Positions 9,001-15,000 of a stretch of 64,000 bases of DNA are shown here, one piece after another. Every line of letters starts with the position of its first letter. The first letter of the stretch is position 1. Where the stretch lies: assembly GCA_977030845.1 (NCBI GenBank), contig OZ365112.1:5270001-5334000 (forward strand), written 5' to 3'. This DNA is from Fimbriosthenelais zetlandica (taxonomy: Eukaryota). The position numbers were made by a program.

Positions 9001-12000
9001 AGAAGGTTTAAATTTCAATGCTTAGTTCTTTGGCTTTGTTCGTCTCCACAAAGGGGGTGGTGTAGAGCCCCCAACGCGCGACACTCACCCATCAGAAGCT
9101 AGTAGTATATGGTGTCAGGACTTTGCAGCCATGTCTTATAGTAGTATAGGCAAATGAACCTTCTTTGATGGTCCCGAATCCACACCAGCTTCCCAGAATA
9201 GGCGAAGTATTAGTGATTTTTGTTATGAATTAATAAAGAACAGCTCTTTACATGAAAGTAAAACCCCTCTGGCATAGTTAATTCAATTCAATTAATGGTA
9301 ATCTAGCTCTAGAAGCAGCAGCCTGCAGCACTCTCGAGAAATGCATTTTGATGAAATATTAACCGATCATATTCAGATGCGGAGGCAAATGTGTGGACGG
9401 CCATGTGATAAAGGCTGCATTCGTTAATACCATCTGACACGGCGGGGGATGAAAATATGTTTATGGCGAGGGTTTGTAATGGTCATTTGAGGCACTTAGT
9501 GATTAAGTGTTAGACCACATACACTAAGTCCCCGGAGTGACAAGTACAACGCGCGAGTCCCTCCCTATTAGTTTGATATATGGAGCAGCTCGCTGACATG
9601 TGCATGGGCACGACAAGGCTTCACAGCCTTAACAAAACCAAACTATGTGTGGCTGCCCTGCCCTGGGACACATTCCTCACTAGGATACACCCTATTTACA
9701 TAATTATACCAAGCATGGCTTAGGGAATTCACCTCGCCATCTTGTGTGATGTGGGATGTACCTTGTAGGGCTTTGACACCAAATGCCAGCGGCTGTTGAC
9801 GAGGCCTATCCAACCATGCGATATCGGCATTACAATGATTAACAGACGGACTTTAGCCGGTAGAAACAAGGATGGAAAATGCAGGTCTGCAAGGGTTATT
9901 ACTCCAATACACTCTCAGACGGTTTCACATTGGAAGACTAGCCGGGTTTGGAGCTGGCAACGAGAAAGAGAAGCATGAGAGGATGACAATCGATGGAAAT
10001 GGGGTTAGATACTGCTAGTAAATAGAGAGAGCGGGGAAGCTCCAGCAACATGCAAAGTAATTGAAGGCACGGCAGATGAAAGACAACAGCCTCTAATGTT
10101 ATTTGCGTGCTATCCTGTCTGCTATAGACTGTATTTTTGTACCATAGTGCATTTCACGTGTTGTCAAGACAAACACACACCCAAAATAACCACTGCTTGG
10201 AAACAGATTACTATTTTGTCACCCATCTGAAAACGTAAGATCTGCCGGATCATATTCGTCTTTGAAGCACAGAATCTTCAATTTGTTGGCAATATCTGTT
10301 CATGAAAGCACACTAAGTCTTGGTATATATATATATAGTTGTCTCAGAATCTCCAACCAAATGTTCAAAGCGAGAATGTCAATATGAAATATAACCATGA
10401 CATTTTATAATATGAATTATTTAAACATGCCAAGGATAAGACATAAATGGACGGACAAATTAATCCCTTTCTGAACGTTGTCTGTCTGTAAAGCAAAATA
10501 TTCGTGTCTTTCCCAATCCGGAATATATCTAAATCTCCCGGAATCTACCTGATTACATCTATACAATTGTTATATTTTGATTAATATGTCTCTTAATGAT
10601 TAATTATCCTATTGAGTATATACGGAGCGATGAAGGAACAAACACATAGGAGTACAGTCCAAGCACTACTGACTTGTGTATCTAGTCTTTCTTTATTTTT
10701 AGGGCAAAAGACAAAACAAGGTTTGAAGAATGAGTCATGCTCATATGATGTAAGGTTACAGGCTTGTACATACACTGTAGGAGAAAAGATGGTAATAGAC
10801 CTTTTGAGGGAAAATTAATATTAGGAGAAAACTAGAATATAACATTACCCCCGGTCTCCCTAAAAATGTTTGAAGGTGAAACCTGGAAGTTATGTGAAAG
10901 TGATATTTGTAAGAGAAATTTGGAATAAGTTACGGAAATTATTAGAAATAGAAATTAAATGACATCATTTGAGAATACTACGTGTATGAATGGTAAGACG
11001 TAGAAAGCTTGACATGAACTGTAAATTTTTTGTATAATCTAATTAAGCAAGATAAGTTTATAAACGCAAGATTACATGGGTACTCTTAAGTAACTTTCTA
11101 TCATCTATTTAAGACCTTTTACATTTAATAACTAAAGAAGATTAGGACAGTTTGTCCAAATCCCATGTTATACGTCTATTTAGTTGATGGGAAATTAAAA
11201 TAATAAAACATTAACTCCAGGATACTCAATAACTAACTCGAAAACCATCGAGACAATCTAAAAATGGATAAACGGCTAAATATAAGTACTGTAACTAGAA
11301 TACATTTACATATATGACTGGCCATTTTCCAGTAAGTATGGTTATACAGAGGATTACACCAACTTAAACCTAAGTAAAATATGAGTAAGTGAGATATATG
11401 TGTGAAACTCATTATCTGTATCAGGCAGTTTGACTCACAAAGGTCAGTTGCATCTGCTCACCAAATGCCCCACATGACAATCATAGTCACCCCGAGATGC
11501 AAAGGGATCTATACCACTGAAGTGTACCACAAGGCATGGTTGCTGGTGGTCAGATTAGAGATGCACTGAGTGAATGCTCCGGCGTGCAGCAGTTACAACT
11601 AGCTAGGAGGTAACTGCCTCCGAGGGGTTCACATCCCAAACCCCTATAGGATCACTGCAGTTCCCTTATCTGTGGGGGTATTGCAATACCACCCACTGGG
11701 TAACTGGGGGCACCCACTCATCACAAGGAAGGCATACAAGAATCTTCCCCCACACCATGTGTCAGACTATTAATCAATACACAGCAAGGCTGGGGTGATA
11801 GAGGATGACACATGAAACTTAAGCAAACATCCGCAAACCACCCAAGATCATCTCCCCACACTGACACAGACAATTTGTCACAATCATCATGTTTACCAGT
11901 TTACAGTTGTTCATTTCGTCCCACACAGTTATACAGCTGTTAAAATTAATATAAATGGCTGTGAGGACTTAGAGTATTATACATAACTAACTGAACTCAT

Positions 12001-15000
12001 TCCTGGCATCTGAGTAACATATCTATGGGATTACAACATGCAATTAACCTCTAACATTCATATAGCATCTTTATTTCCTCTTAAGAAATGTCCACCTTGT
12101 CTATCCCCTAGTCCAGATCGTCCCAGTATAGCAAAACCAACAGAATCACGAGCAGAAATATCTGCAACTGGAGGTGGAGGAGCATAATCAGCAAAACCTT
12201 GTGTAAGGGTCCTATCACACACCACGGCTCCCGGTGGCAGGGGTGTAGTACCCCCGGGAGTATGGTGACATGGGCTCCGGTGAGCATCACTGGGGTCCAT
12301 GGGGTCCCCCGAGGGAAAATGTGCTGTTCCATGGTCTAGGTGTTATAGACTAGTCTAAATATTCAGAAATGTCGCTCTAAAAAGTCCCTAAGGCATTTTT
12401 GAGGAAAAGCTGGCAAACAAGTGCTCCAGGGGCACTCGGGGGCGCTGTTCACTTTTCCTGAAAATTGTACCAGTCTATTACCGTTTATCACCTGAATGTC
12501 CTCCAATTACCTGGGCACCTTCCTCAGATGAATTGGATCCAGACTGGACAAAAGGCTCTTCCAAAGCACCAGCCTGTTGTAAATTCCTAAGCCTAGTTCT
12601 GGTCAAATGGCGCACAGGAATTCTAGATAACTCCTTTGCAGTTTTAGCAATAGCAGAGAATTTGTCCTTCTCCATAAGCACAGGCACAGAAAATCACTGC
12701 TAAATAAAAATAAGACTCCATATGCATATTGATAGTCCAGTCCACAGGAGCTGCAGAGAGGGAGGCAGAAAAGGGCCGCAGAGACTCGAGCAAGTCCCTG
12801 AGTGGAGAGCAGCTCACGCTCACTAAGCAAACTTTAGCAAAATTAAACACTATATAATGAGGTGTAGAATCACCCCCACCAAAAGAAAAAGGCCCCAGCG
12901 AGGCTGAGGGGTAGCCAGGACCGGGTCCATCTCCACCAGATGTTATATTTTGATTAATATGTCTCTTAATGATTAATTATCCTATTGAGTATATACGGAG
13001 CGATGAAGGAACAAACACATAGGAGTACAGTCCAAGCACTACTGACTTGTGTATCTAGTCTTTCTTTATTTTTAGGGCAAAAGACAAAACAAGGTTTGAA
13101 GAATGAGTCATGCTCATATGATGTAAGGTTACAGGCTTGTACATACACTGTAGGAGAAAAGATGGTAATAGACCTTTTGAGGGAAAATTAATATTAGGAG
13201 AAAACTAGAATATAACACAATCTATGCCACAGTATATTATACTCAACAGGATGATCGCCCCTACAGTATGCTGCAGGCGCCCCATACAGTATCAGCTATC
13301 GGGATTATGTGAAATGCCTGTAGGCAGAGTGGTGAAGGGCAAAGTCCAGAGGCTTTAGTGATATATATGCATGCATGGTGAGGGAAACAAGAGATGATGA
13401 AGCTATCCTCAGACGCATAATACAGCTAAGTGCTTTCCCAATGTACAGACTTAAGAAAATCCCTCCATCCTTCCCACTGCCTCACAATAGGGACTTGTTA
13501 AAGAGAGCTTGCGTACACATCCCACTTCCATACAATGGATGTCTTTTCGAAATGCCACAACAGTCATAATGTATACTGGGGGAAGGGCTGATGATATACG
13601 GCATGGCATTCAGAAAACCGAGGCCTTTCAAAACGCAATGTCCTCTAATGCGTCCCATCCCATATAAAACAACATTGCTTCAAGACTGCAGTTGCCAGAT
13701 CAAAGCTGCCATTTTTCAACGACGATTTTTTACTCTCAGGAACAGACTGCATGAGAGAGGGAGAGAAAATATGTTTCATGGTCAGCCAGACGTCCGACAC
13801 CAAACCTTCATTATTCAGGAACCCTGTCCATTAGTATCACTAGAAATTAGAATAACAACAGAAAGCCGTTATAATAACAGATGCATTATTAAATAACAGC
13901 CTGAACTAATGGAATATGGATAGTTGGGGAGGAAAACTGATCTGTCTAATATATAATAGATTAGAATGCCATGGGCAACCTGCTCCGAGTATCCTATTCA
14001 GGTCATGACACCAGAGTTCAGTTCATGACTCGGTGACTTTGATTATGTATCAAATGTCCTGTCAATCTCGACTTACTACTGACACCTGACCATTTCTATA
14101 GTATCCAGTAGTGGTCAGAGTACAGAACAGATAGCTATCACACGTGGTCATACATAACACAGTCTAACCAGCACACAGGCCTCTCAGTCCAGTGTTGACA
14201 CTGTCAATTTGAGGTGGACTTTCAATGGGCTGCTTCTGTGTCCCTACTTCAGTTGAGTGGTCTAGGATATGTTGACATTTAGCATGCCAGTATTGGCACT
14301 GGTGTGCTGCAAGAATGTTTGGAGGCATATCTGAACATACTATAACAAATACGTAACAGCAATGTATAAAGAGGCTATATCAATAGCAATAAATGTGGAA
14401 TGGCAATTGGCAAAATGAAACAAATACCTTGGAAATCTTTAGGTTCATGCAAATAGCTTTCTAATATCAAATACCATAGGAATAGTCTCTATTCAGATAT
14501 ATTTATAGCCAATATGCACTAGGCCGACGAAAGGTCAGGACAATTGATAGGTCATATTTGTACTGCTTGAAAGGAGGCTGCAGGGGTCAATAAGATGGAG
14601 ATGTAGAGCGGCAGCGACTGACCTTTGGCTGTCCGGACCAGGGATACACTATCTGGCCATGGCTGAGTGAGATACTTGTGTCTAGAAATAAGCCTTACAA
14701 AGTATACACTTACGGTTCGGTGCTGGGCGACCGCAGGCATTCCTGATGCCTTGTGTTAGCAACGACGAGGCAAAGACAGGAGGTAGATGAGGGAGGAGAA
14801 TGGTACTACAAGCCCTGGCTTTATCATCAATACAAAACCACAATCCACTCCAACATACAAGTAGTTACTGATTACGACTACAGGAGTTGGTGCTGTGAAG
14901 GAATGACTTAGTTATCCTACTAGTTGCATAATGTCCTGTTGGTGTGAGAGATGGGGAAGTAGGAGGTTTGTGAGAGAGAGGAGGCTGGAGGATGGGACTG

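What the first reader, a model, noticed from the sequence alone, without database searches (positions are those of the whole stretch)
10568..13217. Very young, pol-less LTR element with identical LTRs, a tRNA-Ala PBS and only micro-ORFs
All cis signals are intact: two LTRs identical by eye over 277 bp, 9-bp terminal inverted repeats, a CAAT TSD, an 11-nt tRNA-Ala PBS, a PPT and AATAAA. Yet the 2.1-kb interior has no RT, RNaseH or integrase. Since LTRs are identical at integration, this insertion is very recent and must have been mobilised in trans, like TRIM/LARD-type elements. At 2.65 kb with small sense-strand ORFs it may be an undescribed non-autonomous family parasitising an active gypsy-like partner.
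Basis: partly seen in the sequence, partly recalled or inferred. Interest (0 to 1): 0.7.

Follow-up and report, generated by a model that had tools for sequence, protein, structure and literature searches.

The report
Young non-coding LTR retrotransposon copy
This is a 2.65-kb mobile-element copy with two identical end repeats and all the signals needed for copying but no genes of its own, an ordinary kind of genomic parasite that must borrow the enzymes of another element.

Summary
Window 10568-10844 and 12941-13217 are a 277-nt direct repeat, 100% identical. The repeat has TG..CA ends, a perfect 9-nt terminal inverted repeat and CAAT on both outer flanks.

The element lies on the minus strand. 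Two nt inside the 12941 LTR, an 11-nt run (12928-12938) is complementary to the 3' end of a vertebrate tRNA-Ala as printed in a paper. A 14/17-purine tract abuts the other LTR. AATAAA occurs in the LTR on the minus strand only.

The 2,096-nt interior has no detectable protein:
- 0 of 50 stop-free segments reach a Pfam cut-off.
- The longest open runs are what shuffled sequence gives.
- Three large protein searches found no credible relative.

It is therefore a non-coding, non-autonomous LTR retrotransposon, inserted recently and moved by enzymes supplied in trans. This kind is well known (the TRIM-LARD continuum; similar elements of about 3 kb in mosquito).

Three points are untested: whether it belongs to a multi-copy family, what its partner is ("gypsy-like" has no support here), and which host carries it. 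No eukaryotic genome collection was on hand. "Very young" means at most 0.4-5 My, depending on the mutation rate assumed.

The parts
10564..10567 (.). Target-site duplication, left copy (CAAT on the + strand)
   Evidence: It is identical to 13218-13221, and a fifth base does not match.
10568..10844 (-). 3' LTR in element orientation (277 nt)
   Evidence: 100% identical to 12941-13217. TG..CA ends and a 9-nt perfect terminal inverted repeat. AATAAA on the minus strand at 10692-10697. The U3/R/U5 borders are not resolved.
10845..10861 (-). Polypurine-tract-like run abutting the 3' LTR
   Evidence: 14 of 17 purines on the minus strand, in the top 0.5% of interior windows. The plus-strand alternative has 7 of 17.
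10845..12940 (-). Interior, 2,096 nt, non-coding. In element orientation the 5' part (about 12940 down to 11370) has GC 0.37-0.55 and the 3' part (about 11367 down to 10845) has GC about 0.30.
   Evidence: Stops occur in all three sense frames (42 in the frame counted). 0 of 50 stop-free segments of at least 25 codons reach a Pfam cut-off. Open-run lengths are at chance level.
12478..12687 (-). 69-aa sense ORF, taken as chance
   Evidence: phmmer against 1.84 billion representatives gave 1 hit at E=5.9e-4, to a repetitive 1,321-aa protein without retroelement domains. Atlas recognition is 1740, below the 2300 that 91% of real families reach. There is no PDB match at E<=1.
12058..12300 (-). 80-aa sense ORF, the longest with a start codon, taken as chance
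   Evidence: No homologue among longer proteins (287 candidates, none at E<=1) or near-length proteins (run with the 94-codon open segment 12061-12342). Atlas recognition is 1328. The best PDB match has E=0.13.
12928..12938 (-). Primer-binding site, 11 nt complementary to the 3' end of tRNA-Ala. A 2-nt spacer (12939-12940) separates it from the LTR.
   Evidence: Window sequence compared with the tRNA-Ala 3' fragment printed in bioRxiv 10.64898/2026.01.26.701835 and in PMC12025293. The twelfth base differs.
12941..13217 (-). 5' LTR in element orientation (277 nt)
   Evidence: AATAAA on the minus strand at 13065-13070.
13218..13221 (.). Target-site duplication, right copy (CAAT on the + strand)

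Best explanation
Window 10568-13217 is one complete copy, on the minus strand, of a non-coding, non-autonomous LTR retrotransposon.

Shown:
- Two identical 277-nt LTRs with integrase-type TG..CA ends and a 9-nt inverted repeat.
- A 4-bp target-site duplication.
- An 11-nt tRNA-Ala primer-binding site 2 nt from the 5' LTR.
- A purine-rich tract at the 3' LTR.
- A 2.1-kb interior without any recognisable protein.

Inferred mechanism:
- An LTR-driven transcript of a source copy was packaged, reverse-transcribed from a tRNA-Ala primer and integrated with a 4-bp staggered cut.
- The Gag, reverse transcriptase and integrase came from an unidentified autonomous LTR element or endogenous retrovirus in the same genome.
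- Both LTRs of a new copy derive from one template and show no difference here. The insertion is therefore recent: at most about 0.4-5 My, depending on the rate assumed.
- The interior was already non-coding when it was copied.
For: - LTR pair 277 nt, 100% identical. Exact borders and the CAAT duplication. 9-nt terminal inverted repeat.
- PBS match of 11 nt to a printed tRNA-Ala 3' end, correctly placed 2 nt from the LTR.
- PPT-like tract of 14/17 purines in the top 0.5% of windows, in the same orientation as the PBS; the opposite orientation fails both tests.
- AATAAA in the LTR only on that strand.
- No coding capacity:
  - 25 ORFs of at least 30 aa overlap the element and the longest is 80 aa.
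  - 0 of 12 ORFs, 0 of 50 stop-free segments and 0 of 3 LTR-overlapping frames reach a Pfam cut-off, and none of the weak matches is to a retroelement family.
  - Open-run length is at chance level.
  - No credible homologue, and 0 of 10 ORFs are in the 15-billion-protein collection.
- A full element deleted only after insertion would, being this young, still show open and recognisable gag or pol remnants. None is seen.
- The kind is documented: non-coding LTR elements form a length continuum that includes 1.5-4 kb (PMC13570524). Culex has elements of about 3 kb with LTRs of about 260 nt, tRNA PBSs including Ala, and no master copy (PMC3286476).
Against: - Only this one copy was seen. There is no solo LTR or interior fragment in the other 61 kb (3 hits, all E>=0.16 and at most 28 nt). 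Membership in a family is therefore unproven.
- No partner element is in the window.
- The PBS is short (11 nt) and was compared with a human tRNA fragment, not the host's own tRNA.
- The PPT is interrupted.
- AATAAA is common in the window (109 sites), and a TATA-like run lies downstream of it in the LTR, so the U3/R/U5 layout is unresolved.
- The 253-nt leader folds no better than shuffles (z=-0.04), so no packaging structure is evident.
- LTR identity could also come from gene conversion or from the assembly. Neither is testable here.
Confidence: 0.8

Rival explanations
1. A one-off defective copy: an autonomous LTR element or endogenous retrovirus that lost its genes at this locus after insertion, through deletion and decay. 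On this reading its LTRs were kept identical by gene conversion. It is then old and was never mobilised in trans as a non-coding unit.
For: Copy number is unknown, and no second copy lies in the window. Zero differences in 277 sites cannot separate recent insertion from homogenised LTRs. CpG is depleted in the element (observed/expected 0.34, against 0.46 for the window).
Against: No remnant of gag, protease, RT, RNase H, integrase or env is detectable in 50 stop-free segments on both strands. The TSD, PBS, PPT and terminal inverted repeat are all intact, which fits poorly with enough age to erase all coding signal. Gene conversion over exactly the full 277 nt is an extra assumption.
Confidence: 0.08
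2. Assembly artefact: the two identical LTRs, or the junctions to the interior, result from collapse or mis-joining of repeat copies. The real locus would then hold a solo LTR or a longer element.
For: Perfect identity is what consensus collapse would produce. No read data were available.
Against: The window has no N or gap. The outer flanks carry a matching 4-bp duplication. The PBS and PPT sit exactly at the inner LTR borders in one consistent orientation. A mis-join would rarely reproduce all of this.
Confidence: 0.04
3. A semi-autonomous element whose small sense ORFs (69-80 aa) encode a real protein, for example a very divergent Gag-like or accessory protein, as in TR-GAG-type elements.
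For: Two sense ORFs lie downstream of the PBS in one frame. One borderline hit at E=5.9e-4 exists.
Against: ORF lengths are at chance level. No Pfam, PDB or homologue support was found. Atlas recognition scores of 1328 and 1740 are below the 2300 reached by 91% of real families. The single hit is to a repetitive protein, matches several of its repeats at 35-38% identity over 42-47 residues, and that protein has no retroelement domain. Two upstream ATGs precede the 69-aa ORF.
Confidence: 0.04
4. Not a retroelement: two independent solo LTRs, or a segmental direct duplication, that happen to bracket 2.1 kb of host DNA.
For: None beyond the lack of coding sequence.
Against: Neither LTR has its own flanking duplication, while the outer flanks match. 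A tRNA-complementary PBS and a purine tract sit at the two inner borders in the same orientation.
Confidence: 0.02

Closest known systems
[quoted passage not shown]
   Same: LTRs, TSD, PBS and PPT are kept while the interior has no gag or pol. LTR identity is high. The element depends on a partner's proteins. The paper states that 1.5-4 kb elements are frequent although no term exists for them (60 of 115 sugar-beet families have a median length of 0-4 kb).
   Different: At 2,650 nt it meets neither the strict TRIM limit (below 1 kb, or at most 1.5 kb) nor the LARD limit (above 4 kb). The TSD is 4 bp. The host is unidentified and may not be a plant. No 5S-like or tRNA-like module was found, so it is not Cassandra-like.
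Non-coding LTR elements without a master copy in Culex quinquefasciatus (cqUNK families; PMC3286476, passages and part of Table 2 read)
   Same: Similar size and LTR length (for example 2,994 nt with a 261-nt LTR). PBSs to various tRNAs, including Ala in one family. No coding sequence and no identifiable autonomous relative.
   Different: The Culex elements carry internal tandem repeats and 5-bp duplications in the rows seen. This element has no tandem repeat and a 4-bp duplication. No sequence comparison was possible.
Mammalian non-autonomous retrovirus-like elements: MaLR (named as an analogue in PMC3286476), and ETn/MusD and VL30 (recalled, not from any call)
   Same: LTR-bounded, non-coding or nearly so, a few kb long, and mobilised by the proteins of a related autonomous endogenous retrovirus.
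   Different: Membership cannot be tested, because no sequences of those families were on hand. The window does not look mammalian: CpG observed/expected is 0.46 and only three repeat families of at least 60 nt occur in 64 kb. Their PBS types and duplication lengths, as I recall them, differ.

Membership tests
LTR retrotransposon / retrovirus-like element (structural definition) | Two direct long terminal repeats with TG..CA ends and short terminal inverted repeats | tested here: met
   277 nt, 100% identical. 9-nt perfect inverted repeat.
LTR retrotransposon / retrovirus-like element (structural definition) | Target-site duplication of 4-6 bp on the outer flanks | tested here: met
   CAAT on both sides, exactly 4 bp. 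The 4-6 bp range is from PMC3790719 and PMC4422553.
LTR retrotransposon / retrovirus-like element (structural definition) | tRNA-complementary primer-binding site next to the 5' LTR | tested here: met
   11 nt complementary to a printed tRNA-Ala 3' end, 2 nt from the LTR, on the minus strand. The host tRNA was not available.
LTR retrotransposon / retrovirus-like element (structural definition) | Polypurine tract next to the 3' LTR | tested here: met
   14/17 purines, in the top 0.5% of interior windows; the tract is interrupted.
Autonomous LTR retrotransposon (Ty3/gypsy, Ty1/copia, BEL/Pao, ERV) | gag and pol (protease, RT, RNase H, integrase) reading frames | tested here: not met
   0 of 50 stop-free segments, 0 of 12 ORFs and 0 of 3 LTR-overlapping frames reach a Pfam cut-off.
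   No eukaryotic genome collection was on hand. No RT or integrase lies in the window. tRNA-Ala is used by some plant non-chromovirus Ty3/gypsy lineages (PMC6317226) but is not specific to them.
TRIM (strict sense) | Total length below 1 kb (or at most 1.5 kb in the extended definition) | tested here: not met
   The element is 2,650 nt. Limits are as stated in PMC13570524.
LARD | Total length above 4 kb with a long non-coding interior | tested here: not met
   The element is 2,650 nt. The limit is as stated in PMC13570524.
Non-autonomous LTR retrotransposon in the broad sense (any length) | Intact cis signals (LTRs, PBS, PPT, TSD) without the enzymes for transposition | tested here: met
   See the rows above. 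The broad definition is proposed in PMC13570524.
TR-GAG | Retains a Gag reading frame | tested here: not met
   No Gag family was matched. The longest sense open run, 98 codons, is reached by 25% of shuffles.
Cassandra-type TRIM | 5S rRNA-like module in the LTR | tested here: not met
   An Rfam E-value scan of 10400-13400 gave 2 sub-threshold matches (a snoRNA and psbNH), neither a 5S nor a tRNA family. There were 0 matches at gathering score in the whole window.
Repeat family (multi-copy) | Several copies with the same interior and different target-site duplications | not testable with these tools
   Within the window there are 0 further copies or solo LTRs in 61 kb. The rest of the genome was not available.

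The most novel reading that the evidence does not exclude
This copy may be the first seen member of an uncatalogued and currently active non-autonomous LTR family of the unnamed 1.5-4 kb size class. Its host would be a CpG-depleted, possibly vertebrate, genome. It would be primed by tRNA-Ala and integrated with a 4-bp stagger, with a partner that is itself undescribed or already lost. That would make the locus a marker of ongoing retrotransposition and give a handle on which cis signals alone suffice for hitch-hiking.
Probability: 0.3. Interest if true: 0.4.

Novelty: new member of a known kind. Interest (0 to 1): 0.25.

Why it matters
If the family is multi-copy and young, it marks recent or ongoing retrotransposition in this genome and points to an active autonomous partner. 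Identical-LTR, non-coding copies are also useful presence/absence markers. They are easily missed or mislabelled by annotation pipelines that rely on protein domains. As a kind of element it is ordinary: non-coding LTR hitch-hikers of this size have been described in plants and insects, and analogous ones in mammals.

Tried and rejected
- Plus-strand orientation: rejected. There is no TGG-type PBS after the left LTR, only 7/17 purines before the right LTR, and no AATAAA on that strand of the LTR.
- Hidden coding remnants: not found. The tool would not translate frames with stops, so ORFs and stop-free segments were scanned one by one.
- Protein relatives of the two longest sense ORFs: none credible. 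The exact look-up found 0 of 10. The Atlas gave no usable lead. The one hit, P0001, was examined and set aside as repetitive and without retroelement domains.
- A structured leader or packaging signal: the 253-nt leader gives z=-0.04.
- 5S, tRNA or other RNA modules: none.
- Internal tandem repeats: none.
- Other copies, solo LTRs or a partner in the window: none.
- A scan of the prokaryotic genome collection with a 25-mer across the PBS/LTR junction: 0 matches. This says nothing about eukaryotes.
- Host identification: no Pfam domain in 140 open frames, no Rfam family, and a text search for the terminal sequence of a neighbouring MITE found 0 papers. The host stays unidentified.
- Literature on tRNA-Ala-primed elements: searches returned 2 and 16 papers. 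Only general statements were found.
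Full report
**1. What is there**

Window 10568-10844 and 12941-13217 are a direct repeat of 277 nt with no difference (string equality).
- The bases immediately outside the two copies differ on both sides, so the repeat borders are exact.
- The repeat begins TG and ends CA. Its first and last 9 nt are perfect reverse complements, and the tenth position breaks.
- The four bases before the left repeat and after the right repeat are both CAAT. A fifth base does not match.
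- Neither repeat has a duplication of its own across its two flanks. This argues against two independent solo LTRs.
- A 25-mer from the repeat start occurs only at these two places in the 64 kb, even with 3 mismatches allowed.
- The window holds no N.

**2. Orientation and cis signals**

The element reads on the minus strand.
- PBS. Two nt inside the 12941 LTR, the minus strand carries a TGG-initiated run (window 12928-12938). It is complementary to the last 11 nt of a tRNA-Ala 3' fragment.
  - I took the comparator from print, not from memory. bioRxiv 10.64898/2026.01.26.701835 gives the human fragment tRF-3021a, its probe "BIO-Ala-3021" and the codons read by that tRNA (passages of methods sections 12 and 13).
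  - PMC12025293 lists the same fragment (one passage of Appendix A).
  - The host's own tRNA-Ala could not be examined: there are 0 tRNA genes in the window.
- PPT. At the other inner border, the 17 nt abutting the 10844 LTR on the minus strand hold 14 purines. Only 0.5% of interior windows reach that value. In the plus orientation the corresponding window has 7 of 17.
- AATAAA. It lies in each LTR on the minus strand only (10692-10697, 13065-13070). The hexamer occurs 109 times in the window against 75.7 expected, so this is weak support by itself.
- LTR layout. A TATA-like run lies downstream of the AATAAA within the LTR, and another A/T-rich run lies near its start. I could not place the U3/R/U5 borders from sequence.
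- Leader. The 253-nt leader after the PBS folds no better than shuffles (z=-0.04; 89 of 200 shuffles fold at least as well).

**3. The interior**

The interior is 2,096 nt (10845-12940). All three sense frames are interrupted many times (the tool counted 42 stops in one frame).

ORFs and protein families:
- 25 ORFs of at least 30 aa overlap the element on both strands. The longest is 80 aa.
- Against Pfam, nothing reaches a curated cut-off:
  - 0 of 12 ORFs (two weak matches at E=0.018 and 0.23).
  - 0 of 50 stop-free segments of at least 25 codons (five weak matches at E=0.024-0.21).
  - 0 of 3 LTR-overlapping frames (one weak match at E=0.066).
  - No weak match is to a retroelement family.
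- The longest open runs (103 codons on +, 98 on -) are reached by 32% and 25% of 500 dinucleotide shuffles.

Searches for relatives:
- The 69-aa sense ORF, scored against 1.84 billion representative proteins, gave one hit at E=5.9e-4. The hit is a 1,321-aa repetitive protein whose Pfam matches are compositional and not retroelement-related. It aligns to several of its own repeats at about 38% identity over 42-47 residues. I take it as chance.
- The 80-aa ORF had no homologue among longer proteins (287 candidates, none at E<=1).
- Its 94-codon open segment had none among near-length proteins.
- PDB sequence searches gave E=0.13 at best.
- None of 10 element ORFs is in the 15-billion-protein collection.
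- The Atlas recognition scores (1328 and 1740) are below the level reached by 91% of real families.

Other features:
- No tandem repeat lies in 9000-15000.
- No RNA family reaches threshold. Two sub-threshold matches in 10400-13400 are unrelated to 5S or tRNA.
- In element orientation, the interior has a GC-richer 5' part and an AT-rich 3' part of about 0.6 kb.

**4. Surroundings**

- The rest of the window holds no other copy, solo LTR or interior fragment. A blastn search with word size 9 gave 3 hits, all at E>=0.16 and at most 28 nt.
- There are 158 open frames of at least 70 codons in the window. I scanned 140 against Pfam. Left out were 6 in the minisatellite at 0.5-1.1 kb and 12 in the element, which were treated separately. 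Of the 140, 0 reach a cut-off and 4 have weak matches at E=2e-4 to 9e-3. So no RT, integrase or recognisable host exon is near.
- Window GC is 0.415 and CpG observed/expected is 0.46. For the element the values are 0.40 and 0.34. This indicates a CpG-depleted eukaryotic genome.
- Only three repeat families of at least 60 nt occur in 64 kb. From my own knowledge of primate repeat density, this does not fit a human contig.
- The host remains unidentified.

**5. How it most likely works**

Shown: a complete set of cis signals in one consistent orientation, around a non-coding interior.

Inferred, from the established replication scheme of LTR elements:
- A transcript starting in the 5' LTR and ending in the 3' LTR of a source copy was packaged by Gag.
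- It was reverse-transcribed from a tRNA-Ala primer and inserted by an integrase that makes a 4-bp stagger.
- All of these proteins were supplied by another element.
- The two LTRs of a new copy come from one template, so zero differences mean a recent insertion.

With 277 sites, the 95% upper bound is about 5.4, 2.5, 1.1 or 0.42 My for assumed rates of 1e-9, 2.2e-9, 5e-9 or 1.3e-8 per site per year. The rates are assumptions, because the host is unknown.

A full element that lost its genes only after so recent an insertion would still show open, recognisable remnants. None is seen, so the interior was already non-coding when copied.

**6. Comparison with what is known**

- Non-coding LTR elements are traditionally split into TRIM (below 1 kb, or at most 1.5 kb) and LARD (above 4 kb). 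PMC13570524 (passages) stresses that they form a continuum. It notes that 1.5-4 kb elements are frequent but unnamed, and that most have highly similar LTRs and TSDs.
- PMC3286476 (passages and part of Table 2) describes non-coding elements in Culex without a master copy. Examples are about 3 kb with LTRs of about 260 nt, and one family has an Ala PBS. The paper names MaLR as the mammalian analogue.
- tRNA-Ala priming is reported for plant non-chromovirus Ty3/gypsy lineages (PMC6317226, passages). A tRNA-Ala is among the primers in a figure legend on Candida elements (PMC4139406, one passage).
- A 4-bp duplication is typical of MLV and PFV integrases, but the spacing is evolutionarily flexible (PMC3790719, passages; abstract starts of this paper and of PMC4422553 in listing 52). 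Neither the PBS nor the TSD therefore names the partner's superfamily.
- ETn/MusD and VL30 are further analogues that I recall. No call showed them.
- The supplementary tables of these papers were closed. They might list families that bear on novelty.

**7. What stayed unchecked**

- Copy number, the partner element, polymorphism, transcripts, and comparison with Repbase/Dfam.
The only genome collection on hand is prokaryotic (one scan, 0 matches).
- No spliced model or joined sequence was needed or made.

**8. Verdict**

The only additions are the strand and some softening of the weaker signals: the PPT is interrupted, AATAAA is not above chance, and the PBS was compared with a human fragment. 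It is an ordinary, well-preserved non-autonomous LTR retrotransposon copy: a new member of a known kind at most.

Noticed in passing
window 29545-29761 and 45166-45382: Two copies (87-90% identical) of a hairpin-like element of about 217 nt, with terminal inverted arms of about 63 nt. Both copies are flanked by TAA on each side. This looks like a MITE. From recall, a 3-bp TAA/TTA duplication is typical of PIF/Harbinger (Tourist-like) elements. A text search for its terminal 19-mer found 0 papers.
   Followed up: partly
window 666-878 (degenerate copies from about 603 to 938): A perfect minisatellite of 10.1 copies of a 21-nt G/T-rich unit (register copies). It produces the window's repetitive pseudo-ORFs of 122-150 aa.
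   Followed up: partly
whole window: The window is gene-poor. 0 of 140 open frames of at least 70 codons outside the element and the minisatellite reach a Pfam cut-off. There are 0 tRNA genes and 0 Rfam families. AATAAA is over-represented, with 109 sites against 75.7 expected and a largest shuffle of 98.
   Followed up: no
window 11672-11696: A 25-nt near-palindrome (92%) lies inside the element's interior (self-comparison). No function is suggested.
   Followed up: no
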